Shown: positions 2,484-13,851, counted from the first letter of the stretch. The stretch is DNA of 13,851 nucleotides from an uncultured Methanosarcinales archaeon (GCA_964492935.1 CAZBLF010000029.1:1-13851); one strand, 5' to 3'. Translations and numbers: made by a program. The notes: generated by a model not told the origin, from the sequence alone.

Positions 2484-3158
2484 TTATTCTTTTACGGTTG
2501 AGAAGATTGTGTGTAGGTAAAATACTGTTCTTAACAGTTCTGTTGCGATGTTTAATGTATAGAACGCTAGGATGATCTGTACGTTTGCGAAGATGATGAA
2601 GGGAAATGCTACCTTGTTGAAGTCGATGAGCATGGTGAAGAGTCTTGCTGGACCTTTATTCTTTCCTTTTGCTTTCTCTAGGTTGGTTTCAGTCTTTTCG
2701 GTGTAATCGAAGACGCGTTCTCTCGCACTCGTTACTGCTAGAAGCGTTAGGGCTGCGATCAGGATGTAGATGCTGTTGAAATTGTTCCTGAAATGGAAGA
2801 ATAGACCTAGGGCTAGTGCTACATAGAAGATTCTATTTACTAGAAGATCTCCGATTGCATCGTACAGGAAGCCTTTCTTTGAGAATTTCTTGGTGATTCT
2901 CGCAATTGCGCCATCGGCACAGTCTAATAGGATACCTAGTTCGAATAGGATTACGGTTGGAAGTTTAAGGAACATGAATGCGGTTACAATGCTTGCTAGT
3001 TTTGCTAGAAGGTTTAAGGTGGTAACTTGGTTAGGGGTTGCTCTTAGTTTTAGGAGAACCCAGGTTAATGGTACTGAGAGATAGCGGTACATCATCTGGT
3101 GGATTAACTTGTAGTGCCACGGCTTCGCGCTTTTCTTTAAGATGTATTTGAAATTCAT
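2484..3158 (-). CDS. CDP-alcohol phosphotransferase family integral membrane protein (canonical motif)
   Basis: 224 aa and hydrophobic throughout. It carries the complete signature D-x2-DG-x2-AR-x8-G-x3-D-x3-D as LLDCADGAIARITKKFSKKGFLYDAIGD (nt 2847-2924). Confidence 0.85.
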   Translation of the reverse strand: MNFKYILKKSAKPWHYKLIHQMMYRYLSVPLTWVLLKLRATPNQVTTLNLLAKLASIVTAFMFLKLPTVILFELGILLDCADGAIARITKKFSKKGFLYDAIGDLLVNRIFYVALALGLFFHFRNNFNSIYILIAALTLLAVTSARERVFDYTEKTETNLEKAKGKNKGPARLFTMLIDFNKVAFPFIIFANVQIILAFYTLNIATELLRTVFYLHTIFSTVKE

Positions 3159-3181: not shown

Positions 3182-4093
3182 TTATAAGGGTTTTCCTTCT
3201 AGCAGTGCGTTTATTGCCATGGCCCATCCTTCGGGACCGGTGCCATCTACTCTGATTATTGAAGAATTTTCTGGAAGTTCTACATGTCCTTTAGGCTTTG
3301 CCACTTGGTAGCCTTTGTCTGCCCATTCTTCCATGCCGTGATCGCTTTGGGAATCGCCTAGTCCAACGGTAAAAACTCCTTGAGGGTATTTGATTTCGTA
3401 CATTTGCTTGAGGGCTTTACACGCCTCTTCTTTTGAAACTTCATTGTTATCGCGTCCCTTACCGACTAAGTGGTAGCGGCCTCGACTCCATGTATATCCT
3501 GCATCCTCTAATTCCTGTTTGAATCGCGCTATTTTTTCTTCGTCATCGTCGAAGCCTCCGAATTCGGTTCCAATCTTTACGGGCAGATGATATTCTTTCA
3601 TTTGATCTAGCTTTGCTAGCTCTAGGTCATAGCCGACGTCTCTGCCTAGTTCTTGGGGAGACATCTCCGTATAAAGTCTGATTTCAAATGGGAGTTCTTT
3701 TTGTAGTTCATGTAGGAATCTCGTTGTTTCGTCGACTCCAATGTTGTATTCTAGAAGGTTGTATGTTGCATTATCTTCGACTCTCTCCTCATCGGCGAGC
3801 CAAGGTCTAAATTCTTCATGCTCTTCTAACTCACTACGACTTAGAAAATCTTCTGGGACGTAGATGACGCTTCCGTTTTCTGCTATTAATGGAAAGGGAT
3901 TATCTAATCTTCGAATGTCTAGGAGTGCGAGAGCTGCTGATTTGCCGGTAACGAAAGATATGGGGATTTCAGCTTCAATAGCTGCATCGTAGGCGTCTCG
4001 TGAGAGATCGTCTTTAGCGGTGCGATCGTCTATGTAGCAACCATCCATATCGGTAAGAATGATTGTTTGTTCAAGATCTTGGTCTGCATGCAT
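3182..4093 (-). CDS. HAD superfamily phosphatase, subclass IIB-like (MPGP/Cof-like), very acidic
   Basis: 303 aa. Motif I is ILTDMDGCYIDD, motif II FVTGKS and motif IV GLGDSQSDHGM, with a large cap insertion between motifs II and IV. A 23-nt gap separates it from the downstream CDP-alcohol transferase. Confidence 0.7.
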   Translation of the reverse strand: MHADQDLEQTIILTDMDGCYIDDRTAKDDLSRDAYDAAIEAEIPISFVTGKSAALALLDIRRLDNPFPLIAENGSVIYVPEDFLSRSELEEHEEFRPWLADEERVEDNATYNLLEYNIGVDETTRFLHELQKELPFEIRLYTEMSPQELGRDVGYDLELAKLDQMKEYHLPVKIGTEFGGFDDDEEKIARFKQELEDAGYTWSRGRYHLVGKGRDNNEVSKEEACKALKQMYEIKYPQGVFTVGLGDSQSDHGMEEWADKGYQVAKPKGHVELPENSSIIRVDGTGPEGWAMAINALLEGKPL

Positions 4094-4115
4094 GTAATTT
4101 ACACATGAAAAAGCC

Positions 4116-4123
4116 TATATAAA
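4116..4123 (-). promoter_or_regulatory. Archaeal-type TATA box (TTTATATA on the minus strand) for the HAD/CDP-alcohol-transferase operon
   Basis: Its 5' T at 4123 is exactly 30 nt upstream of the ATG at 4093. An AGAAAGA purine flank lies upstream on the minus strand. Confidence 0.5.
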
Positions 4124-4190
4124 TCTTTCTCTTTTTACTACTTGATAATGGTACTTATATTTCATAGTGCTCCTGTTATGTTTAGGTACA

Positions 4191-4198
4191 TTTATAAA
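4191..4198 (+). promoter_or_regulatory. Archaeal-type TATA box (TTTATAAA) for the nucleotidyltransferase/kinase-fusion/RLP operon
   Basis: Exactly 30 nt upstream of the ATG at 4221, which supports 4221 rather than 4167 as the start. It begins a block (4191-4217) nearly identical to 259-284. Confidence 0.55.
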
Positions 4199-4220
4199 AA
4201 CAGTTTTGTTCTTTCAGGGG

Positions 4221-4937
4221 ATGAAAGCGTTAATTTTAGCGGCTGGAATGGGAAGTCGATTGATGCCGTATACTGAGGAAACTCCGAAGTGTTTGTTGAA
4301 GGTGGGGGAGGTTCCGATGTTGGCTTTGCAGTTGAAGGCATTGCATGCTATTGGGATTCGCGATATTGTTGTGGTTACTGGTTATTTGAAAGAGAAAGTA
4401 GAGGAAGTTGTTGGAGATCAGGGGAAATGTATCTTTAATCCTGATTTTGAGACTCATGGGATTTTGCATTCGTTTTTAGCTGCTAAAGAAGAGGTGTATG
4501 GCGAGGAATTTTTGTATTTGGCAGGAGATATTGTGTATAATGCTAAGATTCCGTCTTTGATTGCTTCTGGTAAAGGAGATATTGCTATTGGTGTTGATCG
4601 GAAGCCTTGCAACGAGGAGCATTCAAAAGTGTTAGTTGAGAACGGCCAGGTTGTGGAGATGGCTAAGACGATTGTTTGTGGGGAAGCTACTGGTGAATTT
4701 GCTCATATTGCTAAGTTTTCTAAGGAAGGCAGTAAGGCGTTCTTTGATGTGATTGAGGAAACGCTTGCTGAGAAAGATGCGCGTGCGTATATGATGGATG
4801 CGTTGAACAAGGTTCGCGACAAGGGTTTGGTTATGCTTCCGGTGTACACTGACGGGTATGCTCGGATTGAAATTGATTTTATTGAGGATTTAGAGAAAGC
4901 CCGAAAGATGGTGTTTCATGAAACTGACGCTCGTTAG
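4221..4937 (+). CDS. Sugar- or alcohol-phosphate nucleotidyltransferase (LicC/IPCT/PntC-like)
   Basis: MKALILAAGMGSRLMPYTEETPKCLLKV is the G-x-G-(S/T)-R...PK nucleotide-binding signature. It is 238 aa from the ATG at 4221. The track ORF begins at 4167, but that extension would start upstream of the TATA box. It overlaps the next gene by 20 nt. Confidence 0.8.
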   Translation: MKALILAAGMGSRLMPYTEETPKCLLKVGEVPMLALQLKALHAIGIRDIVVVTGYLKEKVEEVVGDQGKCIFNPDFETHGILHSFLAAKEEVYGEEFLYLAGDIVYNAKIPSLIASGKGDIAIGVDRKPCNEEHSKVLVENGQVVEMAKTIVCGEATGEFAHIAKFSKEGSKAFFDVIEETLAEKDARAYMMDALNKVRDKGLVMLPVYTDGYARIEIDFIEDLEKARKMVFHETDAR

Positions 4938-6309
4938 ACACGGTCAGACTGAGGAAAATGCTTCTGGTATTATTCAGGGACAGAGTCGTGGAACGTTAAG
5001 TGAAAAGGGGAAGCTGCAGGCTGCGGAGCTTGGGGAGACTTTGAAGAATCATTCTTTCGATGTGATTATTTCTAGTAGTTCTAATCGTGCCAAGAATACG
5101 GCGTCGGTGATTGGTGAGGGGCATGATGTTGCATTGGAGTTGTCTGATGCAATTCGTGAGAGAAATTTGGGTGTTGCAGAGGGAACTGCTGTAGGGGCGG
5201 CACATGGGTTGATGAAGGAGACGCCGGAAGGTGGGGAATCGTTAGCTCAGGTTAGGGATCGTGCCGAGGCGTTTGCTCGAGAATTGCTTGCAAAAGAATA
5301 TTCTTCTTGTTTGATTGTATCGCATAATGGATTTCTTGCGCATTTGATGGGATTTTTTCAGGCAAAGGCAATTGATTCTTGTTTAGACTTTAAAATTGAA
5401 CATGGTGAAGTTTTGGAGATTGATATTTCTCTCGTTGATGTGGGGAATTTGAATTATGTATACAAGATTACGCTGAATGGAATTACTGGATATTTGAAGC
5501 AGGCTCTGACAGAGTATCGTAAATCGTTTCCTGGTGAGAAAGAGTTGCCGTTGAAAGAGGATCGATTGGCGAATGAGGTTGCTGCTCTGAAGCAATTGAA
5601 TGCTTTGGATGTTTCTGGTTTTACCTTTCCTTCGGTGTTGTCGTATGATGCTGCCCATAATCTAGTGTTGTTATCTGAAATTACGGGAAAAACATTGCTC
5701 TCTTATTTCTTGGAGGGTGTTTTTGATGAAGCGCATGCTTCTGCTGCGGGAGATGCTCTGGGATTGTTGCATGCGGTGGATGCTGCTGGCATTCGAAAGG
5801 ATGATGATGCTTTCTTTAAGGAGATTGTTCGGTTTCGAAGCGTGGTGAGTAGTCATGCGCTAGGTTCGGAGCATCAGAAATTGATTGCTGAACGGTTTGA
5901 TACTATTTTTGCTGATGGTTTTCCAAAATCTTTGTTGATTGGTGATTTTTCTCCTAAGCAGTTGTTGTTATCTGGAGGTTCTGTGGGTGTTGTGGACTTG
6001 GAATTTGCTTGTAAAGGTGATGCGGCATTCGATGTTGGCTTTTTCTTGGCGCACTATGTGCTGGAGGAGATGAAGGGTGCTGATTCTGGTGCGGTAGAGG
6101 GTGCTATGAAGGCCTTTATTGAGGCGTATGGGAAGCATGTTGCTATTGAAGGGATGAAATCAAGGATACTTTTTTATATGGGAGCGGGATTACTCAATAG
6201 AGTCGATGGCACGGTTCGGGGTGGCGATATCAATGAAGCAATTGTCGCTGCTATCAGGGAACGATCGATAAAAATTATTAGTGGGGAAGTAACCTATGGA
6301 ATGGGATAA
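4918..6309 (+). CDS. Bifunctional fusion: N-terminal histidine phosphatase (PGM/cofactor-dependent mutase family) plus C-terminal MtnK-like (APH/choline-kinase fold) kinase
   Basis: 463 aa. Residues 1-~168 carry LVRHGQTEEN (RHG motif), SSSSNRAKNTA (conserved Arg) and IVSHNGFL (second His). From residue ~175, VGNLNYVYKI and GYLKQAL match the MtnK GDGNLNYVF and IIKQAV motifs. IGDFSPKQLLL is the catalytic-loop Asp, VVDLEFACKGDAAFDVGFF the D-x-EF metal loop, and MGAGLLNRVDG matches the MtnK C-terminal helix. Confidence 0.8.
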   Translation: MKLTLVRHGQTEENASGIIQGQSRGTLSEKGKLQAAELGETLKNHSFDVIISSSSNRAKNTASVIGEGHDVALELSDAIRERNLGVAEGTAVGAAHGLMKETPEGGESLAQVRDRAEAFARELLAKEYSSCLIVSHNGFLAHLMGFFQAKAIDSCLDFKIEHGEVLEIDISLVDVGNLNYVYKITLNGITGYLKQALTEYRKSFPGEKELPLKEDRLANEVAALKQLNALDVSGFTFPSVLSYDAAHNLVLLSEITGKTLLSYFLEGVFDEAHASAAGDALGLLHAVDAAGIRKDDDAFFKEIVRFRSVVSSHALGSEHQKLIAERFDTIFADGFPKSLLIGDFSPKQLLLSGGSVGVVDLEFACKGDAAFDVGFFLAHYVLEEMKGADSGAVEGAMKAFIEAYGKHVAIEGMKSRILFYMGAGLLNRVDGTVRGGDINEAIVAAIRERSIKIISGEVTYGMG

Positions 6310-7495
6310 CGACATAACAATAACTTATTTTATCAAGAAGGCGATTGCCACGAAGAAATCGTTGCGCGAGGTTGTAGATACCATTGCAGCAGGGATTAGT
6401 ATTGGGACGCTACAGGTAGCATATGATGCTCATACCACTAAATGGCACGCGGATAAGGCTGCGAATCCTAATGCGTATAAGGCAGAGGTTGAGGAGTATA
6501 GCGTATTGCCGATGGATGAGAATTCTGCTGTTGTGAAAATTAAGGTTTGTAGTGATTTAATGGATTTGAAGCATTGTTCTTTCGCGACGTTGCTCTCTTT
6601 TATTGCTGGCGATGTTTTTGGGACGTCGTATGACGCGGAAGAGATTCGCGTTTTGGATATTGACTTTTCTGAAAAGGCATTGGCTCAGTTTAAGGGTCCT
6701 AAATTCGGAAGTGAAGGTATTCGGAAGATGCTTGGATTGGAGAATAGTGATCGGCCGTTGCAGGCTTTGATTTTGAAACCGAATACCGGTCAGCCAAGTT
6801 CTCATTACGCCGATATTGCTTACAAGGCTGCATTAGGTGGGATGGATTTCATCAAGGATGACGAATTAAACATTAATCCTACGTCGTGTCCGTTTGAGGA
6901 GCGTGTCAAGATGATTTGTGATGCGTTGAAAGAGGCTGAAAAGGAGACGGGCAAGAAAACTATCTATGCTCCAAATATTTCGTTCCGACCTGAATATATG
7001 AAGGAATATGCTCGAAAAGCTATTGCGGCTGGAGCTAGTGCATTGATGATGAATATTGTGTATGTGGGTATGACTGCGGTGCAGATGATTGCTGAGGATC
7101 CGGAATTTAATGTTCCTATTTACGTGCATCGAGCAGGACATGATTTCTTTACGAGAAATGAGGTAGGTATTGCGATGCCGGTTATGACTAAGTTTTTCCG
7201 ATTGTCGGGAGCTGACATTATGTCGGTGGGTCCGGTCTTTGGTGGTTTAGAGACGAAGGAAACGGTTAAGAAGACGTATGAAGCAGTTAATGCGGATATG
7301 TATGGCATTAACAAGTCTCTTGCTGTTGTTTCTCGATCAAGTAAGGATATTGTTCAGGGTACTGTGGATTGGTTGCAGACGAAGAATGTGATGTTCTTGG
7401 CGGATGGCGGAATTTACAACGGTCCTGAAGGTATTACTGCTACAACCAAAGAGATGAAAGAGACGATTGAGAAAGTTCAGATTCAATCTGCTTGA
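6296..7495 (+). CDS. RuBisCO large-subunit-like protein (form IV RLP), not a carboxylase
   Basis: 399 aa. DRPLQALILKPNTGQ...GGMDFIKDDELN aligns by eye to GRPLLGCTIKPKLGL...GGLDFTKDDENV. VHRAGH corresponds to IHRAMH, and RLSGADIMSVGPVFGGLE to MSGGDHIHSGTVVGKLE. The K334 and H327 equivalents are lost. It overlaps the upstream kinase fusion by 14 nt. Confidence 0.85.
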   Translation: MEWDNDITITYFIKKAIATKKSLREVVDTIAAGISIGTLQVAYDAHTTKWHADKAANPNAYKAEVEEYSVLPMDENSAVVKIKVCSDLMDLKHCSFATLLSFIAGDVFGTSYDAEEIRVLDIDFSEKALAQFKGPKFGSEGIRKMLGLENSDRPLQALILKPNTGQPSSHYADIAYKAALGGMDFIKDDELNINPTSCPFEERVKMICDALKEAEKETGKKTIYAPNISFRPEYMKEYARKAIAAGASALMMNIVYVGMTAVQMIAEDPEFNVPIYVHRAGHDFFTRNEVGIAMPVMTKFFRLSGADIMSVGPVFGGLETKETVKKTYEAVNADMYGINKSLAVVSRSSKDIVQGTVDWLQTKNVMFLADGGIYNGPEGITATTKEMKETIEKVQIQSA

Positions 7496-8313
7496 TTTTT
7501 TAATTTTTTATAGTTTTCTTCTGGAAGTAATTGGGATGCTAGGGTTGCGTCGCGTCCGTGGAAGTCGGAGCCGCCTGAAAGTAATAAGTTTAGTTTTTCT
7601 GCTTCCTTTTTTATGGTAGATGCGGAATATTTTTCGAATGCATCTGCACGATAGGGATAGAAGTGTTCTATTGCGTCTCCGCCTGCCTTTTTGAAATCGT
7701 GGATGAGTGTTTTGGCATCGGTATTGCTGTAGACGAGGGGATGTGCTAGTATTGCTAAGCCGCGAGCATTATGAATTGCATCGATTGCTTGTTTGAAGGT
7801 GGTTGTTTGCTTTCTGTTTTTGTAGGCAGGTTGTCCATTGCCGATGAGGGTATCAAATACCTGGTCAGGGGTTTCTAGTTGTTTGTTGTTTTTCATGAGG
7901 ATTGATGCGATGTGTGGGCGGCCGATCGTTCCTTTCGCTAGTTTGTGTACTTCCTCGTACGTTATCTTGTAGCCGAGCTTTTGTAATGCTTGTATCATGT
8001 CTTTCTTTTGTACTATTCTCGCTTTTTGGGCTTTGTCAACGATTTCTAGAATGTCTTTGTGGTTTGGGTCGATGAAGAGACCGAGAATGTGGATATCGGA
8101 GTGTTGTGGATGATCTGCGGTTATTTCGATGCCCGGAACTACGGTGAGTGTTGTGTTCTTGGCTGCTTTTTGTGCAGCTGCGATGCCTGCGGTGGTGTCG
8201 TGGTCGGTTATTCCGATGACATCTAGGCGTTCTTTTAGCGCTGCATCAATTAATTCTTTTGGAGAAAGCTTGCCGTCGGAGGCGGTGGTATGAGTATGGA
8301 GATCGATGCGCAT
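7483..8313 (-). CDS. PHP-domain metal-dependent phosphoesterase (TrpH/YciV-like); candidate 3',5'-bisphosphonucleotide (pAp) phosphatase
   Basis: 276 aa. MRIDLHTHTTASDG is the PHP His-x-His start, followed by ITDHDT, the ILAHP His and GGSDFHG. It is the last gene of the Sat-CysC operon, with only 3 nt between it and cysC. Confidence 0.75.
   Translation of the reverse strand: MRIDLHTHTTASDGKLSPKELIDAALKERLDVIGITDHDTTAGIAAAQKAAKNTTLTVVPGIEITADHPQHSDIHILGLFIDPNHKDILEIVDKAQKARIVQKKDMIQALQKLGYKITYEEVHKLAKGTIGRPHIASILMKNNKQLETPDQVFDTLIGNGQPAYKNRKQTTTFKQAIDAIHNARGLAILAHPLVYSNTDAKTLIHDFKKAGGDAIEHFYPYRADAFEKYSASTIKKEAEKLNLLLSGGSDFHGRDATLASQLLPEENYKKLKNQAD
7496..7510 (+). terminator. Oligo-T tract (TTTTTTAATTTTTTA), a candidate archaeal intrinsic terminator for the RLP operon
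   Basis: It follows the RLP stop codon (7493-7495) directly. The same bases on the other strand encode the Lys-rich C-terminus (KKLKN) of the convergent PHP gene. Confidence 0.35.
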
Positions 8314-8316
8314 GCC

Positions 8317-8832
8317 TTAACAAATTCCCTTGTCTTTTAAAGCTTGTCTTAGTTGTTGTGCTGCTTGTTCTGGTGTTGTGTTTTGGGTGTCTATTGTGAC
8401 TTCGGGTTGCTCAGGTTCCTCGTAAGGTACATTTAATCCTACGAAGTCTTTTATCTCTCCTGATCTGAATTTTTTATAGTGACCTTTGACATCTCGTTCC
8501 TCGCAAATTTCGATTGGGCATTTGATGTAGACTTCGATGAATTTTTTTATCTGATTTCTGGCATATTCTCTAATTGCCTTGGTGGGAGAGATGACGCAGG
8601 CTATGCTCAGGATGTGGTCGCTTGTTAAGAGTGCACAAATATCTGCTACTCTTGTGATGTGCTTGTCGCGATCTTCTTTTGTATAGCCGAGATCCTTAGA
8701 AATGGTTTTTCTGACGATATCTCCATCTAATAGAGCTACCTGGATGTTTTCTTTTCTTAATTGCTCTACTAATAGCTCGGCAATGGTGGATTTTCCTGCT
8801 CCGGAAAGCCCGGTAAACCAGATTGTGGTCAT
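8317..8832 (-). CDS. cysC: Adenylylsulfate (APS) kinase
   Basis: 171 aa. IWFTGLSGAGKSTIA is the P-loop, LDGDIVR the substrate motif, and SPTKAIRE follows. ATGA overlap with sat. Confidence 0.92.
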   Translation of the reverse strand: MTTIWFTGLSGAGKSTIAELLVEQLRKENIQVALLDGDIVRKTISKDLGYTKEDRDKHITRVADICALLTSDHILSIACVISPTKAIREYARNQIKKFIEVYIKCPIEICEERDVKGHYKKFRSGEIKDFVGLNVPYEEPEQPEVTIDTQNTTPEQAAQQLRQALKDKGIC

Positions 8833-9971
8833 ATGAGGACCTCGTGAGATAATTCTTGTGCAACTTCTTTGCGCATGAACTCTTTTGGTGGAATCTCTTT
8901 CTTAGACAACATGTCACGGATGAGTGTTCCAGAGATTTCGATTTGTTCCTCTACAGGATGCGGACACGTCTTTTCTGTTGCGATGGAATCACAGTGTTTG
9001 CAGAAGTAGGGTCCTTTTAGTTTGAGGATTTCAATGCCTAGATCATCGAATTTGTCGGTGAACTCCTGGGCTTCGTACTTTTTGTAAAATGAGCCTACAC
9101 CTGCGTGGTCGCGACCTACAATGAAATGGGTGCATCCGAAGTTTTTACGGATGATTGCGTGGAAGACGGCCTCTCGGGGTCCGGCATAACGCATCTGGGT
9201 AGTGAGTGCCGATAAGATTGCACTGTTTTTCGGATAATAGTGTTCGATTAAGGTTTTGTAGCCGTTGATGACGGCTTCTGGAGTGTAGTCGCCCTTCTTT
9301 TTCCAGCCGATTAGGGGATGGAGTAGGATTCCATCTGTTAATTCTAATGCTGCTTTTTGCAAATATTCGTGTGCACGGTGAGGTACGTTTCTTGTCTGGA
9401 AGCCGGTGATTGTTTTCCAGCCTCGCTTCTCGAACTCTGCTCGGGTTTGTTTAGGTGTTAGTTGTACGCCGGGTACAATTGGATCGGGTTCGCCAATCAT
9501 ATCGATTTCTCCTGCAAGCATGATATTGCCGGAATCGTGAAGCTTTTTTACTCCAGGATGGGTTAGATCTTGAGTTCCGAAAATGGCTTGGGATGCTTCG
9601 GTGAGATTAGCCGTATAGATTTGCTCGAGATGCATCTGGGCAATAAGCTTATCATTTTCGTCGAATAGATTGATGTCGTCGCCCTCCTTGACGTTTTCTG
9701 GTACCTTTTGCAGTGGACAGGTCACCGGAACGGTGAACGGGAGATTGTTTTCTAGTCTCGACTCGTGCAGAATGTTGAGAAAGTCGTTCTGAGTTACAAA
9801 TCCTTGTAGCGGTGAAAAAGCTCCTTGTGCAATATTTGCAATATCTAGGATCGTTTCTCGGCTGATGGTGATTTTGGGTAGTTCGTTTGCCTGTGCGATT
9901 GCCTTTTCTCTTCTTTCTCCGGTGAGTAATCGGTCAATTAATTCATTTCCATGTGGTTTATTTGCTTTCAT
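8829..9971 (-). CDS. sat: Sulfate adenylyltransferase (ATP sulfurylase), short homo-oligomeric type
   Basis: 380 aa. GFQTRNVPHRAHE corresponds to the QxRNPxHxxH motif, and HFIVGRDHAGVG is also present. A C-terminal C-x2-C-x8-C-x-H cluster (FCKHCDSIATEKTCPH) resembles the Cys/His zinc site of Thermus/archaeal-type enzymes. Confidence 0.92.
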   Translation of the reverse strand: MKANKPHGNELIDRLLTGERREKAIAQANELPKITISRETILDIANIAQGAFSPLQGFVTQNDFLNILHESRLENNLPFTVPVTCPLQKVPENVKEGDDINLFDENDKLIAQMHLEQIYTANLTEASQAIFGTQDLTHPGVKKLHDSGNIMLAGEIDMIGEPDPIVPGVQLTPKQTRAEFEKRGWKTITGFQTRNVPHRAHEYLQKAALELTDGILLHPLIGWKKKGDYTPEAVINGYKTLIEHYYPKNSAILSALTTQMRYAGPREAVFHAIIRKNFGCTHFIVGRDHAGVGSFYKKYEAQEFTDKFDDLGIEILKLKGPYFCKHCDSIATEKTCPHPVEEQIEISGTLIRDMLSKKEIPPKEFMRKEVAQELSHEVLI

Positions 9972-11646
9972 TTGTGCCCCCGTGTTGTTTGAAAAATCCT
10001 AGGAATTCATCTACCTTGTGGACTTCCACCATATTGATGATCTTTCGGTGATTAGGAAATACTGCTCCTGCGAGGACGATGGTGTCTTGCTCCTCGATTA
10101 ATTGATTCTTGATACAGGCCATGATTGCCTCCTTCTTTTGCTCGACGGATCCCGAATTATCTATTTCATGCTCGACTTGTAATGGGATGACTCCTCTTAG
10201 GAGTTTCAATCTTCTTACGATTTTTATGTTGCTTGTTAGTGCTATAATGGGGAATGAGCTATTGAATCTCGCTAGCATTCTCGCGGAAAAGCCGCCATGA
10301 GTGATACAGAGGAGCTTGTCGATATGCGTATGCTTTGAGAGATCGATAATCATCTTTGAGCAGGCGTCGCTGGGATCGGTGGACTCGTTATCATTCTCTA
10401 AATCGAGAATTGGCGTTTCCTCCTCGCATTCTTGAATGACTGTTGACATTACTTTGACTGCTTGTTCCGGGTTTGCGCCTATCGCCGTTTCACCGGAGAG
10501 CATGACTGCGGACGCGCCATCCATGACTGCGGACGCGATATCTGCTACCTCTGATTTCTTCGGTAGTGGTTGCGTTACCATCGAATGGAGCATTTCTGTA
10601 GCGACGATGACTGGCTTTGCTCTTTTATTTCCTTCTTCGATGATATGCTTCTGAAGCATAGGGACTTTTTGGAAGGAGACTTCGCTTCCTAGGTCTCCCC
10701 GATCGATCATGATGCCATAGGCTGCTTCGATGATGCCGGAAACATTTTTGATTGCTTCCTGATTCTCTACTTTTGCAATGATTTTGATTGTTGATCCCTC
10801 TAACTTTTTTTCTACCGTTCGAACTTCGTCTGCAGTATTGACGAATGATAGCCCGACGAAATCTACTTGTTCTTTTTTTGCGAATGCTATACACTTGTTT
10901 TCTTTTTCCTGTATAGATTCGCGGCTGAGGATCGCTCCGGGAATATTGACGCCTTTGCCTTCTTGTAGGACTGCATCATGCTGGACGAGGCAGGTTACGT
11001 TGTTTCCATCGATTGATTGTACGGTAATTGCGATTGAGCCGTCATCCATGAGCAACTCTTGCCGAGGTTTGACGTGTTTTGGGAATTCAGGTAGATCGAC
11101 ACCGATAGCATCTCCTTCTGGAGTGGTTGAGAGGATGATTGTGGAGTTGGCTTTGAGGATGCGAGGCTCTTTTAATCCGCGAACGCGTACTTTGGGGCCA
11201 GGGATGTCTAATAGAATAGGAATAGTTGCGTCTACTTCGCGTACTTTCTTGATGATGTCGCTATGTTGTTCGGGATTGCCGTGGGATGAATTTATTCTTG
11301 CTACATCCATCCCTGCATTCTTGAGTTTGGTGATTTCTTCAATGGAATTGGTTACAGGACCGATCGTTGCGATGATTTTTGTCTTCTTGATCATGATTTG
11401 CCTTGTAGATCCGATTTCGGCGAGAATTTCTTTAGTTGTGGCAGACTCGTGATTGAGAACATAGAAGATTGCGTTTCCTAAGGACTCTGCTTTGACTACG
11501 GACTCGTCTTCCAGTTCCTTGAGAATTTTGTGGGCACTTCCTACGCTGATGGAAAGAGTTTTGGCGATTTGATTAATCGTTAATCGGCGAGATGCATTTC
11601 TATCTAGAAACGAAATGATCTTTTGGGTGTTTTTGGAGACTGCCAT
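9958..11646 (-). CDS. Fusion of an N-terminal winged helix-turn-helix domain (~aa 1-80) to a full-length pyruvate kinase (A, B and C domains)
   Basis: 562 aa. The wHTH is LTINQIAKTLSISVGSAHKILKELEDESVVKAESLGNAIFYVL. The PK motifs are KTKIIATIGP, ARINSSHG, DIPGPKVRV, KIIAKVENQEA, IMIDRGDLGSEV, VIVATEMLHSM and VMLSGETAIG, with a C-domain ITHGGFSARMLARF...PIIALT. An internal Met85 (nt 11394-11392) sits at the domain junction. It is the first gene of the sat-cysC-PHP operon, with a 14-nt overlap with sat. Confidence 0.85.
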   Translation of the reverse strand: MAVSKNTQKIISFLDRNASRRLTINQIAKTLSISVGSAHKILKELEDESVVKAESLGNAIFYVLNHESATTKEILAEIGSTRQIMIKKTKIIATIGPVTNSIEEITKLKNAGMDVARINSSHGNPEQHSDIIKKVREVDATIPILLDIPGPKVRVRGLKEPRILKANSTIILSTTPEGDAIGVDLPEFPKHVKPRQELLMDDGSIAITVQSIDGNNVTCLVQHDAVLQEGKGVNIPGAILSRESIQEKENKCIAFAKKEQVDFVGLSFVNTADEVRTVEKKLEGSTIKIIAKVENQEAIKNVSGIIEAAYGIMIDRGDLGSEVSFQKVPMLQKHIIEEGNKRAKPVIVATEMLHSMVTQPLPKKSEVADIASAVMDGASAVMLSGETAIGANPEQAVKVMSTVIQECEEETPILDLENDNESTDPSDACSKMIIDLSKHTHIDKLLCITHGGFSARMLARFNSSFPIIALTSNIKIVRRLKLLRGVIPLQVEHEIDNSGSVEQKKEAIMACIKNQLIEEQDTIVLAGAVFPNHRKIINMVEVHKVDEFLGFFKQHGGTNESK

Positions 11647-11647
11647 A

Positions 11648-11669
11648 TTAGTGAATGATTATTCACTTA
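11648..11669. promoter_or_regulatory. Inverted repeat (candidate operator) directly upstream of the HTH-PK start codon
   Basis: TTAGTGAAT (11648-11656), a gatt spacer, then ATTCACTTA (11661-11669). The core AGTGAAT/ATTCACT is a perfect 7-nt inverted repeat. It lies between the minus-strand TATA (11681-11688) and the ATG (11646). Confidence 0.5.
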
Positions 11670-11680
11670 ATTTGTGCTTG

Positions 11681-11688
11681 TTTATAAA
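11681..11688 (-). promoter_or_regulatory. Archaeal-type TATA box (TTTATAAA, palindromic) for the HTH-PK/sat/cysC/PHP operon
   Basis: 42 nt upstream of the ATG at 11646. The implied ~10-15 nt leader contains the inverted repeat. Confidence 0.45.
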
Positions 11689-11714
11689 GACATCGCTTTT
11701 TGAGACGTTATATC

Positions 11715-11723
11715 ATTCACTTA
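11715..11723 (+). promoter_or_regulatory. Third copy of the 9-mer ATTCACTTA, upstream of the rightward promoter
   Basis: An exact direct repeat of 11661-11669, 54 nt away. It ends 16 nt upstream of the TATA at 11739. Confidence 0.4.
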
Positions 11724-11738
11724 CTATTTTCCCATATG

Positions 11739-11746
11739 TTTATATA
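11739..11746 (+). promoter_or_regulatory. Archaeal-type TATA box (TTTATATA) for the CDP-alcohol-transferase-like/GT4 operon
   Basis: 29 nt upstream of the ATG at 11768. This supports 11768 rather than 11615 as the start. Confidence 0.5.
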
Positions 11747-11767
11747 GCGTGTGCTGCTCATAGGGGT

Positions 11768-12436
11768 ATGGTTAAGATTCCTGCTAAGTATGATCGAAGT
11801 GTGGTGATGCGTGTTTTCGCGCGTCCGGTAGGGAATTTGATGATTCCTCTTTTTATGAAGCTCGGTATTACAGGAAATCAACTTTCGATCTTCAATATCT
11901 TTTTTACGTTGTTTAGTTTTCTGTTGATTGGGACTGATAGTTTAGTCATTGGTGCTTTGTTGTTGCAATTTACTATTATTTTTGATACGATGGATGGTAC
12001 TTTGTCTAAAATGAGAAAGCAGAAGTCGCTGTATGGGCGGTATCTAGAAAAGATTTGGCATAATGCGATTGTTCCTTTCTTGTTCGTTGCGCTTGGATGT
12101 AATGTGACTTTGAACAACGGAGATAGTATGTATTGTTTGATTGGATTCTTCATTACGGGATCGATCTTGGTCGTTAATCTTATTGAATTTATTCGTCGGT
12201 ATACGTTTCAGGTTGCTCCTAAGGCACTGGATGCTGATCAGACGGTGAAATCTGAGAAATCGTTGTTGCAGATTGTGGTGCGAGCTATCGGAGATACTTC
12301 GTACATCTTCATGTACGTGTTGGTGTTTGGATATGCTGGTTACCTGGATATGCTGGTGTTGTTTTACGGAGTCTTTTACGGATTGTTGTTTGTTGTCAAA
12401 TTCTTTCAGTTTCTTGGAAAACCAAAGGGTTTTTAA
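11768..12436 (+). CDS. CDP-alcohol phosphotransferase-like integral membrane protein with a degenerate signature motif
   Basis: 222 aa from the ATG at 11768; the track start at 11615 would overlap the PK gene and both promoters. It is hydrophobic throughout. The motif DTMDGTLSKMRKQKSLYGRYLEKIWH (nt 11984-12061) reads D-x2-DG-x2-SK-x8-G-x3-E-x3-H, so AR is replaced by SK, the third Asp by Glu and the fourth Asp by His. Confidence 0.6.
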   Translation: MVKIPAKYDRSVVMRVFARPVGNLMIPLFMKLGITGNQLSIFNIFFTLFSFLLIGTDSLVIGALLLQFTIIFDTMDGTLSKMRKQKSLYGRYLEKIWHNAIVPFLFVALGCNVTLNNGDSMYCLIGFFITGSILVVNLIEFIRRYTFQVAPKALDADQTVKSEKSLLQIVVRAIGDTSYIFMYVLVFGYAGYLDMLVLFYGVFYGLLFVVKFFQFLGKPKGF

Positions 12437-12459: not shown

Positions 12460-13482
12460 ATGGTCAAGATTGGTTTAGTTAGTCCGTTTTTACCGGAACA
12501 GGATGGTATTGCTGTGTATAGCGATAATCTGTATGTTGGTGCGGGTAAGAAAAACATTGTTCGTATTGGTCGGGTGAAGGGTGACTGTGAGTATGTGGTT
12601 GATTTTACTTCTTTTAGTTTACGGAGCAAGCTGGAGCATATTATTGCTAAGGAGAAATTGGATGTGGTGCACTTTCAGTATGTTGCCTCTCTTTTTGGGA
12701 AACGTAATTTGAATCTTGCATTTATTCGGGCGCTCTCGTTGTCGGTTCCGGTTGTGGTGACATTACACGAGGTGCAGTATGGTCAGGGGGGGATGCGGAA
12801 TAGGTTATTGTCGATGTTGGAAAAGAAGATTATTTCTCGTGCGGCTCTGGTTATTGTACATACCCCTGAACAACGAACGTTCTTGGAGAAAAAATATGGT
12901 GCTTCGAACATTCGGTGCATCTATCACGGGTTGTGGAGCAAGTCTGGTGGGGTTGGAGATGCTAAAAGTGTGTTGTTCTTTGGGATGATTTCTGAAGCGA
13001 AGGGTGTTCCCTCCTTAATTGGTGCGATGGATTATCTGGGTGATTATTCTTTGACTATTGCTGGAAGGTTTGTGGATGATGCTAGTGAGAAGTCTGTGAG
13101 AGATGCTCTGAAAAAGAGTGCGGCAAAGATTACTACTGATTTTGGATGGATTGACGAGAAAAAGAAGGAATTATTGTTTCGGAAGGCTGCTGTTTGTGTT
13201 TTACCGTATACGTGGGCACCGTATCAGTCTGGGATTTTGCATAATGCGTTGTCGTTTCAGGTTCCGGTTGTGGTTACTGATGTTGGTGCTTTGCCGGAGA
13301 TTGTTTCTTCGTTTCATTGTGGCGAGGTTGTTAACACTGATGCAAAATCGCTTGCTGCAGGTATTGAAAAGGTGGTGCGACAACCAGGTAGGTATCGTAC
13401 GGGAATTACTAGTTATCAAAAGAAGGCTGACTGGAAGGTTGTTGCTGAAGAACATATGACCTTGTATGGTGGCTTGAAGTAA
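12460..13482 (+). CDS. GT-B fold glycosyltransferase, family 4-like
   Basis: 340 aa. It has the MVKIGLVSPFLP N-terminus, LFFGMISEAKGV, and a C-terminal LPY...SGILHNALSFQVPVVVTDVGALPEIV block homologous to the GT4 donor-binding region. The usual E-x7-E acidic residues are not obviously conserved. Confidence 0.75.
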   Translation: MVKIGLVSPFLPEQDGIAVYSDNLYVGAGKKNIVRIGRVKGDCEYVVDFTSFSLRSKLEHIIAKEKLDVVHFQYVASLFGKRNLNLAFIRALSLSVPVVVTLHEVQYGQGGMRNRLLSMLEKKIISRAALVIVHTPEQRTFLEKKYGASNIRCIYHGLWSKSGGVGDAKSVLFFGMISEAKGVPSLIGAMDYLGDYSLTIAGRFVDDASEKSVRDALKKSAAKITTDFGWIDEKKKELLFRKAAVCVLPYTWAPYQSGILHNALSFQVPVVVTDVGALPEIVSSFHCGEVVNTDAKSLAAGIEKVVRQPGRYRTGITSYQKKADWKVVAEEHMTLYGGLK

Positions 13483-13515: not shown

Positions 13516-13851
13516 ATGTTATCGTGTAAGGCATTTTTCGAATTACTCGTCAAGGATGTAGGTTTCTTTACAGGTGTTCCTGATTCTTTGCTGAAAGATT
13601 TTTGTGGTTATGTTGCTGATCACGCAGAGAAGCATGTGATTGCTGCGAATGAGGGTAATGCTGTTGGTATTGCAGCCGGATATCATCTTGCTTCGGGTAA
13701 GGTGCCCTTAGTGTATATGCAGAATTCTGGTCAGGGAAACGCGGTGAATCCGTTGTTATCGTTGGCAGATCCGAAAGTGTATGGTATTCCTATGCTCTTG
13801 CTTGTTGGGTGGAGAGGCGAACATGGTGTTGCAGATGAAACTCAACATGTT
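13516..13851 (+). CDS. ppd: Partial CDS (N-terminal 112 codons; runs off the window end): thiamine-diphosphate-dependent phosphonopyruvate decarboxylase
   Basis: Not in the ORF track because it has no stop. My translation is [154 protein letters not shown] and NPLLSLADP are the hallmarks I recognise from Ppd/AepY N-terminal TPP pyrimidine-binding domains. Confidence 0.72.

What the first reader, a model, noticed from the sequence alone, without database searches (positions are those of the whole stretch)
4221..7495. Candidate undescribed pathway: nucleotidyltransferase, phosphatase::MtnK-like kinase fusion and RuBisCO-like protein in one translationally coupled operon
Seen in sequence: three plus-strand genes share one TATA box (4191) and overlap by 20 nt (4918-4937) and 14 nt (6296-6309), so they are almost certainly co-expressed. 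Established: MtnK (5-methylthioribose kinase, APH fold) and an RLP (MtnW enolase) are partners in Bacillus methionine salvage. That pathway also needs MtnA isomerase, MtnB dehydratase and MtnD dioxygenase, and none of these is present here. Instead the partners are a sugar/alcohol-phosphate nucleotidyltransferase and a histidine phosphatase domain, set in an island of glycosyltransferases and CDP-alcohol transferases. Inference: the kinase may phosphorylate an anomeric or primary OH, as MtnK does. The fused phosphatase may then remove a second, distal phosphate, following the HddA/GmhB/HddC logic of heptose activation. The nucleotidyltransferase would make the NDP/CDP-activated product, and the RLP would isomerise or enolise a phospho-ketose precursor. 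As far as I know, no RLP has been linked to nucleotide-sugar or head-group biosynthesis.
Basis: partly seen in the sequence, partly recalled or inferred. Interest (0 to 1): 0.88.

Follow-up and report, generated by a model that had tools for sequence, protein, structure and literature searches.

The report
RuBisCO-like protein in CDP-precursor operon
A marine archaeal operon couples a rare, non-carboxylating RuBisCO-like protein to a kinase, a phosphatase and a cytidylyltransferase-type enzyme, and the same four activities recur at related loci even when built from unrelated enzymes, which points to an undescribed biosynthetic role for the RuBisCO family in making an activated cell-envelope building block.

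Summary
Genes 4221-4937 (LicC-like nucleotidyltransferase, NT), 4918-6309 (histidine phosphatase::MtnK-like kinase) and 6296-7495 (RuBisCO-like protein, RLP) overlap by 20 and 14 nt behind one archaeal TATA box.

The RLP keeps the metal and enolisation residues. It lacks the carboxylation residues: K334G, E60G, K177N, N123D. It belongs to a rare clade outside the MtnW, DeepYkr-like, OiaX-like, form III and phage RLP groups.

The adjacency is conserved. Six lineages carry RLP + NT + phosphatase + kinase. In some lineages the phosphatase is HAD instead of His_Phos, and the kinase is 2-phosphoglycerate-kinase-like instead of MtnK-like. That is displacement by unrelated folds, so the functions rather than the genes are conserved.

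CDP-alcohol phosphotransferases or LicD/TagF-like enzymes flank the module. None of these partners occurs at 157 other RuBisCO/RLP loci, apart from one NT.

Best reading: the RLP isomerises a keto-sugar phosphate, kinase and phosphatase reposition the phosphate, the NT makes a CDP-activated product, and a CDP-alcohol phosphotransferase transfers it. The substrate and the step order are inferred, not shown. I found no literature precedent for an anabolic RLP.

The parts
4191..4198 (+). TATA box (TTTATAAA) of the NT-fusion-RLP operon, 23-30 nt upstream of ATG 4221
   Evidence: TTTATAWA is 7-fold over-represented and confined to promoter positions
4221..4937 (+). LicC-like nucleotidyltransferase (238 aa), probably a cytidylyltransferase
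   Evidence: PF00483/PF12804. Best solved relative is LicC 1JYK (E 6e-17), then MurU and IPCT. Full-length match to the IPCT half of IPCT/DIPPS. Orthologues at 37-52% identity lie at L001, L006, L010 and L017.
4918..5427 (+). Histidine-phosphatase (His_Phos_1) domain of the fusion, aa 1-170, with RHG at aa 7 and SHNG at aa 135
   Evidence: PF00300 at 122 bits. Best NCBIfam match is CobC alpha-ribazole phosphatase (92.7 bits, cut-off 162.9). It is a separate 169-170 aa gene in L001 and L006.
5428..6309 (+). MtnK-like (APH-fold) kinase domain of the fusion, aa 171-463
   Evidence: PF01636 at 54 bits. TIGR01767 MTRK E 2e-12, but 46.9 bits against a cut-off of 275. MtnK-type motifs are present: GNLNYVY, YLKQAL..YRKSFPG..LPL, GD(x16)DLEF..FDVG. 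It is a separate 297-298 aa gene in L001 and L006.
6296..7495 (+). RuBisCO-like protein (399 aa) of a rare clade, not a carboxylase
   Evidence: PF00016 and PF02788. No NCBIfam equivalog cut-off is reached. Residue table. AF2 pLDDT 92.7 with TM 0.88 to RuBisCO/RLP structures. Clade bootstrap 76%. dN/dS 0.029.
4116..4123 (-). TATA box of the divergent two-gene operon
3182..4093 (-). HAD-IIB phosphatase, mannosyl-3-phosphoglycerate-phosphatase-like. Candidate to remove a phosphate from the transfer product.
   Evidence: TIGR01484 at 46.6 bits, above its cut-off of 41.8. MPGP models score about 96 bits, below cut-off. It shares the divergent promoter region with the RLP operon.
2484..3158 (-). 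CDP-alcohol phosphotransferase with an intact catalytic motif
   Evidence: PF01066. Motif DCADGAIAR-x8-G-x3-D-x3-D. Matches the DIPPS half of IPCT/DIPPS and archaetidylinositol-phosphate synthase.
11768..12436 (+). Second CDP-alcohol-phosphotransferase-family protein (ORF from 11615, likely start 11768 behind TATA 11739). It has a variant motif ending E-x3-H.
   Evidence: PF01066. The variant motif is shared with the transferases beside the RLP modules in L006 and L017. Its blastp match to the L017 copy is E 8e-18.

Best explanation
This is a leaderless archaeal operon that, together with a neighbouring CDP-alcohol phosphotransferase, makes and transfers a CDP-activated sugar-like or polyol-like phosphate ('CDP-X'). 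CDP-X would go into an envelope glycan, a lipid head group or a phosphodiester.

Proposed steps:
1. The RLP uses its carbamylated-Lys/Asp/Glu Mg2+ site and its K175/H294 acid-base residues to enolise and isomerise a keto-sugar phosphate. It holds the substrate by the distal phosphate, and no CO2 is added.
2. The MtnK-like kinase adds a second phosphate.
3. The fused histidine phosphatase removes the original phosphate. Steps 2 and 3 together move the phosphate at the cost of ATP.
4. The LicC-like NT condenses the monophosphate with CTP.
5. A CDP-alcohol phosphotransferase (2484-3158 and/or 11768-12436) transfers X-phosphate to an acceptor. The HAD-IIB phosphatase may trim the product.

Shown: gene structure, domain families, loss of the carboxylase residues, the separate clade, the conserved four-function association, and the specific co-occurrence with CDP-alcohol transferases.

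Inferred: the identity of X, the use of CTP, and the order of steps.
For: Operon structure.

RLP residues. Kept: K175, K201, D203, E204, H294, R295, H298. Changed: E60G, N123D, K177N, H327S, K334G, G380R, G381S, G403D. MtnW references show the reverse pattern: R295P, H298A/S and H327L, with G381, G403 and G404 kept.

A four-function module was found in six lineages:
- window (with its close relative L012), L001 and L006: NT + His_Phos + MtnK-like kinase + RLP
- L002, L010 and L219: RLP + NT + HAD_2 + P-loop kinase

The P-loop kinases form one family (blastp E 1e-14 to 1e-38). All six members hit '2-phosphoglycerate kinase' and 'mevalonate-3-phosphate 5-kinase' models (best E 6e-55, below cut-off). 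By my own knowledge, both named activities phosphorylate an already phosphorylated substrate.

Fusions: phosphatase::kinase here, NT::HAD in L017.

CDP-OH_P_transf lies beside the module in the window, L006, L010, L219 and L017. LicD and a TagF-like gene lie beside it in L001.

Specificity control, clade loci against other cellular RuBisCO/RLP loci:
- 2PGK-like kinase: 11/24 vs 0/157
- NT: 13/24 vs 1/157
- CDP-OH_P_transf: 10/24 vs 0/157

Purifying selection.
Against: - No enzyme was assayed.
- The kinase and phosphatase assignments are family-level only; every equivalog score is below cut-off.
- Four lineages of the extended clade lack an NT. L212-214 and L215 have RLP + P-loop kinase + PRTase or TCAD2, in mobile or defence-like surroundings. 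L217 has only a sugar-isomerase-type TIM barrel. The clade may therefore not have a single function.
- L017 shows no kinase.
- The order kinase then phosphatase is not distinguishable from phosphatase then kinase.
- The tree is neighbour-joining with 76% support, not maximum likelihood.
- The nearest CDP-alcohol transferase is in a separate transcription unit.
Confidence: 0.55

Rival explanations
1. Same module, different order (MupP/AmgK/MurU logic). The RLP makes a sugar omega-phosphate. The fused phosphatase removes that phosphate to give the free sugar. The MtnK-like kinase then phosphorylates the anomeric OH, and the NT makes an NDP-sugar.
For: The characterised APH-fold sugar kinases (MtnK, AmgK, NahK) are anomeric kinases (own knowledge). 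The kinase carries MtnK-type motifs. The NT hits MurU (67.6 bits; PDB 8HHD E 3e-11). The HAD of L219 weakly hits MupP. The phosphatase::kinase fusion fits consecutive steps.
Against: The NT::HAD fusion in L017 argues that phosphatase and NT act consecutively. The alternative kinase family (2PGK-like) has named members that act on phosphorylated substrates. CDP-alcohol phosphotransferases are not known to use NDP-sugars with an anomeric phosphate (own knowledge).
Confidence: 0.2
2. Kinase first. The kinase makes a RuBP-like bisphosphate, the RLP isomerises the bisphosphate, the phosphatase removes one phosphate, and the NT activates the other.
For: All characterised RLP and RuBisCO substrates carry a phosphate next to the reacting carbonyl (review PMC10176493). 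R295 and H298 are retained, and a new invariant Arg at position 380 could bind a second phosphate. The 2PGK-like partner points to bisphosphate formation. HADs weakly hit RuBP 5-phosphatase.
Against: G403D puts an acidic residue in the classical C1-phosphate site. The phosphatase::kinase fusion would then join non-consecutive steps.
Confidence: 0.15
3. The destination is a soluble DIP-like phosphodiester (a compatible solute) rather than a glycan or lipid. The NT makes CDP-X. The CDP-alcohol transferase condenses it with a phosphorylated acceptor, and the MPGP-like phosphatase removes the remaining phosphate.
For: The NT and the 2484-3158 transferase match the two halves of IPCT/DIPPS (73.8 and 47.4 bits). 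An MPGP-family phosphatase sits in the same divergent gene pair.
Against: Relatives sit in polysaccharide or teichoic-type contexts: LicD, Glyphos_transf, Wzx/Wzy, GTs. The window is itself a glycan island with a flippase, GTs, and sulfation and phosphonate genes. The samples are cold mesopelagic water.
Confidence: 0.2
4. A variant of methionine or 5-deoxyribose salvage: MtnK-like kinase, MtnW-like enolase and MtnX-like phosphatase.
For: The best named hit of the kinase is MTR kinase, and MtnW is among the RLP hits. A kinase + RLP + phosphatase trio resembles MtnK/MtnW/MtnX.
Against: The RLP is far below the MtnW cut-offs and lacks the MtnW signature (K at 123, P at 295, intact G381/G403/G404). 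It lies outside the MtnW and DeepYkr-like groups. No MtnA, MtnB or MtnD is present in about 25 kb. The conserved coupling to an NT and to CDP-alcohol transferases has no role in salvage.
Confidence: 0.04
5. A true form III RuBisCO working in nucleotide/AMP salvage.
For: The best NCBIfam hit is rubisco_III (198 bits). The closest structure is P. horikoshii form III.
Against: The score is far below the cut-off of 497. K334, E60, K177, N123 and H327 are all replaced. No AMP phosphorylase or R15P isomerase is nearby.
Confidence: 0.01

Closest known systems
GmhA / HddA / GmhB / HddC (GDP-D-glycero-alpha-D-manno-heptose synthesis)
   Same: The logic matches: isomerase acting on a keto-sugar phosphate, kinase to a bisphosphate, phosphatase removing the distal phosphate, then nucleotidyltransferase. 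All four functions are encoded together.
   Different: None of the enzymes is homologous except the NT fold. Here the isomerase role falls to a RuBisCO-like protein, the kinase is MtnK-like or 2PGK-like (not GHMP), and the phosphatase is His_Phos_1 or HAD_2. The likely product is a CDP-alcohol-type donor, not a GDP-heptose.
Bacillus methionine salvage MtnK / MtnW / MtnX
   Same: It has a kinase of the MtnK type, a RuBisCO-like protein and a phosphatase, and the RLP retains the enolisation machinery.
   Different: The RLP belongs to another clade with the opposite phosphate-site pattern. There is no MtnA, MtnB or MtnD nearby. It is coupled to an NT and to CDP-alcohol transferases. The context is anabolic rather than salvage.
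MupP / AmgK / MurU (UDP-MurNAc recycling)
   Same: It combines a phosphatase, an APH-fold sugar kinase and a LicC/MurU-type NT. Together these move a phosphate to the position needed for nucleotide activation.
   Different: There is no RLP in that pathway. Its substrate is MurNAc and its product is a UDP-sugar for peptidoglycan.
IPCT/DIPPS plus phosphatase (di-myo-inositol phosphate) and LicA/LicC/LicD (phosphocholine decoration)
   Same: An NT of the same subfamily makes a CDP-alcohol. A CDP-alcohol phosphotransferase or LicD then passes it on. In the DIP case a phosphatase finishes the product.
   Different: The alcohol phosphate there comes from MIPS or from choline kinase. Here it would come from an RLP plus a kinase/phosphatase pair.
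Characterised RLPs: MtnW enolase, R. rubrum isomerase, OiaX decarboxylase and the transcarboxylase/hydrolase, hamamelose-pathway oxygenase
   Same: The fold is the same (TM 0.84-0.88), as are the carbamylated Lys, D203, E204, K175 and H294.
   Different: Identity is 25-29%. The residue signature differs: G60, D123, N177, R380, D403 and Y407. All characterised RLPs act in catabolism or salvage (reviews read).

Membership tests
RuBisCO large-subunit superfamily (fold) | N-terminal alpha/beta domain plus C-terminal TIM barrel, matching PF02788 and PF00016 | tested here: met
   PF00016 at 127.6 bits (cut-off 30.1) and PF02788 at 24.7 bits (cut-off 20.7). AF2 pLDDT 92.7. Foldseek TM 0.88 to 2D69 and 0.86-0.87 to 1TEL and 2QYG.
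RuBisCO large-subunit superfamily (fold) | Metal site: carbamylatable K201, D203, E204 | tested here: met
   K187, D189 and E190 lie in DFIKDDE and are invariant in the clade.
Carboxylating RuBisCO (forms I-III) | Carboxylation and hydration residues E60, N123, K177, H327 and K334 (loop 6) | tested here: not met
   The residues are G33, D106, N163, S310 and G317. There is no conserved Lys in loop 6 anywhere in the clade.
Carboxylating RuBisCO (forms I-III) | Curated model score (TIGR03326 rubisco_III, cut-off 497) | tested here: not met
   198.2 bits
MtnW / YkrW enolase | Curated model score (TIGR03332 cut-off 513.6; PRK09549 cut-off 409) | tested here: not met
   151.3 and 179.5 bits
MtnW / YkrW enolase | Active-site pattern: Lys at position 123, C1-phosphate site (G381, G403, G404) kept, distal site lost (R295, H298, H327 replaced) | tested here: not met
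   The window has D at 123, R295 and H298 kept, and G381S and G403D. The named MtnW references P0074 and P0101 show K123, P295 and G381/G403/G404.
MtnW / YkrW enolase | Genomic partners MtnA, MtnB, MtnD | tested here: inconclusive
   They are absent from about 25 kb around the operon in two strains. The rest of the genome is not available.
OiaX-type RLP (3-oxo-isoapionate-4-phosphate decarboxylase) | Curated model score (NF042437, cut-off 700) | tested here: not met
   136.2 bits. OiaX-like references form a different signature group.
IV-GOS clade of Tabita et al. 2007 | Clustering with the Global Ocean Sampling RLP sequences that define the clade | not testable with these tools
   The clade is mentioned in PMC10173188. 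The defining paper and its sequences are not held. A marine origin would be compatible.
Phage 'form IV-like' RLPs (Jaffe et al. 2019) | Shared residue signature and clustering with viral RLPs | tested here: not met
   38 viral contigs carry RLPs at 25-29% identity with Q294, K295 and D298, and they lack R380 and D403.
MtnK (5-methylthioribose kinase) | Curated model score (TIGR01767, cut-off 275) | tested here: not met
   46.9 bits, E 2e-12, N-lobe only. The split gene of L001 scores 52.3 bits.
MtnK (5-methylthioribose kinase) | Family motifs: GNLN glycine loop, KQALPY..R..G..WP, GD..DxEF..G..FDxG | tested here: inconclusive
   GNLNYVY, YLKQAL..YRKSFPG..LPL, GDFSPKQ and DLEF..GDAAFDVG are present and invariant in four homologues. 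This is similarity by eye to two solved MtnKs, at E 0.04-0.08.
Histidine phosphatase superfamily, branch 1 | PF00300 score and the RHG / second-His motifs | tested here: met
   122.1 bits (cut-off 21.7). RHG at aa 7 and SHNG at aa 135. No equivalog is reached: CobC scores 92.7 against 162.9.
CDP-alcohol phosphotransferase | Motif D-x2-D-G-x2-A-R-x7-8-G-x3-D-x3-D | tested here: met
   The 2484-3158 protein has DCADGAIARITKKFSKKGFLYDAIGD. The 11768-12436 protein has a variant, DTMDGTLSK...G-x3-E-x3-H, shared with the L006 and L017 copies.
2-phosphoglycerate kinase family (partner kinase at L002, L010, L212, L214, L215, L219; not in the window) | Curated model score (PRK04220, cut-off 343) | tested here: not met
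   All six members hit, with best E 6e-55. L002 scores 152.8 bits. They are relatives, not equivalogs.

The most novel reading that the evidence does not exclude
This RLP clade performs the skeleton-defining step in the synthesis of a previously unknown CDP-activated sugar, ketose or cyclitol phosphate. That product would be attached to archaeal and bacterial envelope glycans or lipids. It would be the first anabolic, non-CO2-fixing role for the RuBisCO superfamily, and possibly a new reaction type for it.
Probability: 0.4. Interest if true: 0.85.

Novelty: new variant of a known kind. Interest (0 to 1): 0.72.

Why it matters
The characterised RuBisCO-like proteins covered in the reviews read here act in salvage or catabolism. 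This clade's gene partners say that it feeds a nucleotide-activation and transfer route, which would widen the known chemistry and physiology of the RuBisCO superfamily.

It would also define a new envelope building block in uncultivated marine archaea, with relatives in bacterial polysaccharide loci.

The hypothesis is compact and directly testable, needing three soluble proteins plus ATP and CTP. The replacement of the kinase and the phosphatase by unrelated folds gives unusually strong comparative-genomic support for a pathway whose product is unknown.

Tried and rejected
1. AlphaFold of the fusion protein with only four homologues gave pLDDT 43. It was not used for fold comparison.

2. The scan of one genome per GTDB species found no close relative. 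The best hit was 38% over part of the protein, in a Bathyarchaeia MAG. The organism therefore could not be named. An archaeal, possibly DPANN, origin is inferred from four things:
- the TATA boxes
- archaeal best family hits
- the neighbouring RLP group in a Nanoarchaeota MAG
- a TARA 0.1-0.22 um sample label

3. I tested whether the clade equals the phage 'form IV-like' RLPs. It does not; the residue signature differs.

4. I considered that the RLP might substitute for PEP mutase, because a genuine phosphonopyruvate decarboxylase lies downstream without an adjacent PepM. This was rejected. A CTP_transf_like::PEP_mutase gene lies about 2.5 kb beyond the window end in the same strain (L220 15995-17296). 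PepM and Ppd are also absent from the other clade loci.

5. I considered that the LicC-like NT is the phosphonate cytidylyltransferase. This is less likely, because PepM is fused to its own cytidylyltransferase domain.

6. Tabita et al. 2007/2008 could not be read, so identity with IV-GOS remains open.

7. The tRNA, Rfam and sigma-70 promoter / intrinsic-terminator scans were uninformative.

8. One literature query was badly framed and returned only glycan papers.

Full report
**The observation**

Three plus-strand ORFs occupy 4167/4221-4937, 4918-6309 and 6296-7495. The sensible start of the first is ATG 4221 (MKALILAAGMGSRL). The junctions overlap by 20 nt and 14 nt.

TTTATAAA lies at 4191-4198. 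The octamer TTTATAWA occurs at six distinct places in the window, each 22-42 nt upstream of the first gene of a transcription unit. That is 10 matches on both strands against 1.4 +/- 1.6 expected, reached by none of 200 shuffles. None lies inside the three genes. This is the pattern of archaeal promoters with short or absent leaders, and it supports a single transcript.

A second strain (L012, a 63-kb TARA contig) is colinear with the whole window at 84% nucleotide identity. Between the two strains dN/dS is 0.029 for the RLP, 0.116 for the NT and 0.145 for the fusion. The exact proteins occur on 9-22 independent contigs from several projects. The genes are real, expressed-looking and under selection.

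**What the three proteins are**

- *The NT.* It matches PF00483 and PF12804. Its closest solved relative is LicC, the CTP:phosphocholine cytidylyltransferase (E 6e-17), followed by MurU and the inositol-1-phosphate cytidylyltransferase. It aligns end to end with the IPCT half of the bifunctional IPCT/DIPPS model.
- *The fusion, N-terminal half.* This is a branch-1 histidine phosphatase (122 bits; RHG and SHNG motifs present). Its best named model is CobC alpha-ribazole phosphatase, below cut-off.
- *The fusion, C-terminal half.* This is an APH-fold kinase. Its best kinase hit, and for the split L001 gene its only hit, is 5-methylthioribose kinase. The score is 47-52 bits against a cut-off of 275. 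It shares the MtnK-type glycine loop, the KQAL..R..G..P motif and the DxEF..FDxG motif. It is therefore an MtnK-like kinase of unknown specificity, not an MtnK.
- *The RLP.* It has both RuBisCO large-chain domains. The AlphaFold model is confident (pLDDT 92.7). It superposes equally well on form III RuBisCO and on RLPs of three types, at TM 0.84-0.88 and 25-29% identity.

**The RLP is not a carboxylase and not MtnW**

On a 271-sequence alignment the metal ligands and acid-base residues are kept: K175, K201, D203, E204 and H294.

The residues that hold and hydrate the carboxylated intermediate are replaced: E60G, N123D, K177N, H327S and K334G. No member of the clade has a loop-6 lysine.

The distal-phosphate residues R295 and H298 are kept, and H327 is kept in most relatives. 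The C1-phosphate site is rebuilt: G380R, G381S and G403D, with R380, D403 and Y407 invariant in the clade.

Named MtnW sequences show the reverse pattern: K123, P295, and intact G381, G403 and G404.

All curated models are missed by a wide margin: rubisco_III 198/497, MtnW 151/514 and 180/409, OiaX 136/700.

**How rare the clade is, and where it sits**

A profile search of 1.84 billion representative proteins found 1,698 superfamily members. Only about six representatives scored above 290 bits. One genome per GTDB species yielded nothing closer than 38%, and the metagenome scan added one short contig.

Fifteen representatives share the G60/D123/N177/S379-R380/D403 signature. They form a clade with 76% bootstrap in a neighbour-joining tree of 166 sequences, and the two inner groups each have 100% support.

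The following all fall outside: sequences labelled by NCBIfam as MtnW, MtnW-related or OiaX-related, the canonical form III sequences, and the phage 'form IV-like' RLPs.

Whether this is the 'IV-GOS' clade of Tabita et al. could not be tested.

**Conservation of the gene association**

In L001 and L006 (RLP 68-69% identical) the order is NT, His_Phos, MtnK-like kinase, RLP. The phosphatase and kinase are separate, overlapping or abutting genes there, so the fusion is specific to the window lineage.

Arrangements in the more distant members:

| Locus | RLP identity | Gene order |
|---|---|---|
| L002 | about 40% | RLP, NT-like, HAD_2 phosphatase, P-loop kinase-like |
| L010 | about 40% | RLP, P-loop kinase-like, (NT5C on the other strand), NT, HAD_2, CDP-OH_P_transf |
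| L219 | 36% | HAD_2, RLP, P-loop kinase-like, NT, CDP-OH_P_transf |

The P-loop proteins of all these loci are one family (E 1e-14 to 1e-38). All six hit the '2-phosphoglycerate kinase' and 'mevalonate-3-phosphate 5-kinase' models, below cut-off.

So the same four functions recur while two of them are supplied by unrelated folds. That is hard to explain unless the functions belong to one pathway.

The NTs of the window, L001, L006, L010 and L017 are mutually 34-52% identical.

A neighbouring RLP group in a Nanoarchaeota MAG (L017) sits between two CDP-alcohol phosphotransferases, an NT::HAD fusion, a second NT and two B12-radical-SAM enzymes.

As a control I searched all 219 fetched loci:

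| Partner | Clade loci | Other cellular RuBisCO/RLP loci | Viral loci |
|---|---|---|---|
| 2PGK-like kinase | 11 of 24 | 0 of 157 | 0 of 38 |
| LicC-like NT | 13 of 24 | 1 of 157 | 0 of 38 |
| CDP-alcohol phosphotransferase | 10 of 24 | 0 of 157 | 0 of 38 |

The clade loci are on average shorter than the others, so the contrast is not an effect of locus length.

**Exceptions**

Four lineages of the extended clade lack an NT.
- L212-214 have RLP, the P-loop kinase and a phosphoribosyltransferase. In L212 these lie next to a type I restriction system and a TIR-domain gene.
- L215 has the kinase, the RLP and a TCAD2-domain gene beside transposases.
- L217 has a sugar-isomerase-type TIM barrel and the RLP.

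The kinase is thus the most constant partner, present in 9 of 11 informative lineages. The clade may contain more than one function.

**Destination of the product**

CDP-alcohol phosphotransferases use CDP-linked donors (own knowledge). Their presence beside the module in five lineages, and of LicD and a TagF-like enzyme in L001, argues that the NT makes a CDP-alcohol-type donor.

In the window the 2484-3158 enzyme has the complete catalytic motif. It shares a divergent promoter region with the RLP operon, together with an MPGP-family HAD-IIB phosphatase.

The 11768-12436 protein carries a variant motif ending in His. The transferases next to the RLP modules of L006 and L017 share this variant.

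The surrounding island in the same strain (L220) also encodes:
- a LegC/PseC-like aminotransferase, GT2 and GT4 enzymes, a Wzx-type flippase and an epimerase
- sulfate adenylyltransferase, APS kinase and a pAp phosphatase
- a complete 2-hydroxyethylphosphonate branch: a Fom1-like cytidylyltransferase::PEP mutase, phosphonopyruvate decarboxylase scoring 495 bits against a cut-off of 312 (measured on the 88%-identical L012 orthologue), and an Fe-ADH
- two sulfatase-family proteins

This is an envelope-glycan island. The phosphonate branch has its own cytidylyltransferase, so the LicD-partner-type role of the LicC-like NT is left free for the RLP branch.

**Mechanism proposed, and its status**

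*Shown:*
- the operon structure
- the domain families
- retention of the enolisation machinery and loss of the carboxylation machinery
- the phosphate-site pattern
- the conserved four-function association
- the specific link to CDP-alcohol transferases

*Inferred:* the RLP isomerises a keto-sugar phosphate held by its distal phosphate. The kinase then makes a bisphosphate and the phosphatase removes the original phosphate. The NT makes CDP-X with CTP, and a CDP-alcohol phosphotransferase transfers X-phosphate.

The phosphatase::kinase fusion (window, L012) and the NT::HAD fusion (L017) are most simply read as joining consecutive steps.

The alternative orders cannot be excluded. These are phosphatase before kinase, as in MupP/AmgK/MurU, or kinase before the RLP, acting on a RuBP-like bisphosphate. 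A soluble DIP-like phosphodiester as the end product also cannot be excluded.

Weak, recurrent hints point to pentose phosphates or small phospho-hydroxy-acids, but they do not identify X. The hints are the CobC-like phosphatase, the MtnK-like kinase, HADs resembling phosphoglycolate phosphatase and RuBP 5-phosphatase, the 2PGK-like kinase, the MPGP-like phosphatase and the PRTase partner.

**Novelty**

Reviews list RLP activities as enolase, isomerase, decarboxylase/transcarboxylase and oxygenase. All of these act in salvage or catabolism. Full-text searches that required 'RuBisCO-like' together with each of the following found nothing relevant:
- nucleotidyltransferase
- polysaccharide / gene cluster
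- form IV / polysaccharide biosynthesis
- phosphonate
- 2-phosphoglycerate kinase

The enzyme families are all known, and so is the logic of making a nucleotide-activated precursor. What is new is a RuBisCO-superfamily member as the conserved core of such a route, in a clade with its own active-site signature.

Noticed in passing
window 13516-13851 (+), continuing in L220 11057-17296: The window ends inside a phosphonopyruvate decarboxylase gene. In the same strain it is followed by an Fe-ADH (PsrA-like), two sulfatase-family genes and, on the other strand, a Fom1-like CTP_transf_like::PEP_mutase fusion. Together these form a complete 2-hydroxyethylphosphonate / CMP-phosphonate branch in the same glycan island.
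   Followed up: partly
window 7483-9971 (-): A PHP-type pAp phosphatase, APS kinase and sulfate adenylyltransferase form an operon convergent on the RLP, and its last gene overlaps the RLP 3' end by 13 nt. An APS kinase also lies next to the RLP module in L006 (45% identity). No sulfotransferase was recognised. The link between PAPS supply and the RLP module is unexplained.
   Followed up: partly
window 9958-11646 (-): Pyruvate kinase (TIGR01064 at 417 bits, above cut-off) carries an N-terminal winged-helix (HTH_24 / S25e-like) domain of about 85 aa, which is an unusual architecture. In L012 the gene is present at 94% identity, but the public gene calls there replace it with three short plus-strand ORFs.
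   Followed up: partly
window 11615-12436 (+); L006 3810-4667; L017 8791-9486: These form a subfamily of CDP-alcohol phosphotransferases in which the last Asp of the catalytic motif is His and the penultimate Asp is sometimes Glu. It is found beside RLP modules in three lineages. The annotated ORF start 11615 is probably wrong. ATG 11768 sits 22-29 nt downstream of a TATA box at 11739.
   Followed up: partly
window 3182-6309 compared with L012 8257-11401: Divergence between the two strains is mosaic. The RLP, SAT, APS kinase, DegT and GT2 are 96-98% identical in protein. The NT is 80%, the fusion 85% and the MPGP-like phosphatase only 59%. The stretch around the divergent promoter may have been exchanged by recombination.
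   Followed up: no
L174-L211 (38 IMG/VR contigs): Large phage contigs carry a full-length RLP of a different clade (G60, K175, K177, K201/D203/E204, Q294, K295, D298, H327). This is presumably the 'form IV-like' phage RLPs of Jaffe et al. None has the NT, the 2PGK-like kinase or a CDP-alcohol transferase nearby.
   Followed up: partly
L212 258-11684; L214; L215 6119-9278: Distant members of the RLP clade are paired with the 2PGK-like kinase plus a phosphoribosyltransferase. In L212 this lies directly after a type I restriction-modification system, a TIR_2 gene and a YaaC gene. In L215 the partners are the kinase and a TCAD2-domain gene beside transposases. This may be a conflict or defence-related use of the RLP-kinase pair.
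   Followed up: no
L001 5260-6741 and L017 1493-2995, 7218-8768: B12-binding radical SAM enzymes lie next to the RLP modules in two lineages. The L001 copy is most similar to the Sden_1168 P-methyltransferase family, at 322 bits against a cut-off of 575. The NT::HAD fusion of L017 weakly hits the Sden_1164 family.
   Followed up: no
window 10778-11452 (+), 13118-13459 (+): These are long ORFs antisense to, or out of frame within, the pyruvate kinase and GT4 genes. Their composition is Arg/Leu/Ser-rich and low in complexity. They are most likely not genes.
   Followed up: no
whole window: The sense strand of the genes shows strong G-over-C skew (GC skew about +0.3 to +0.4 across plus-strand genes) with T over A. 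It is an unusual compositional signature that might help binning.
   Followed up: no
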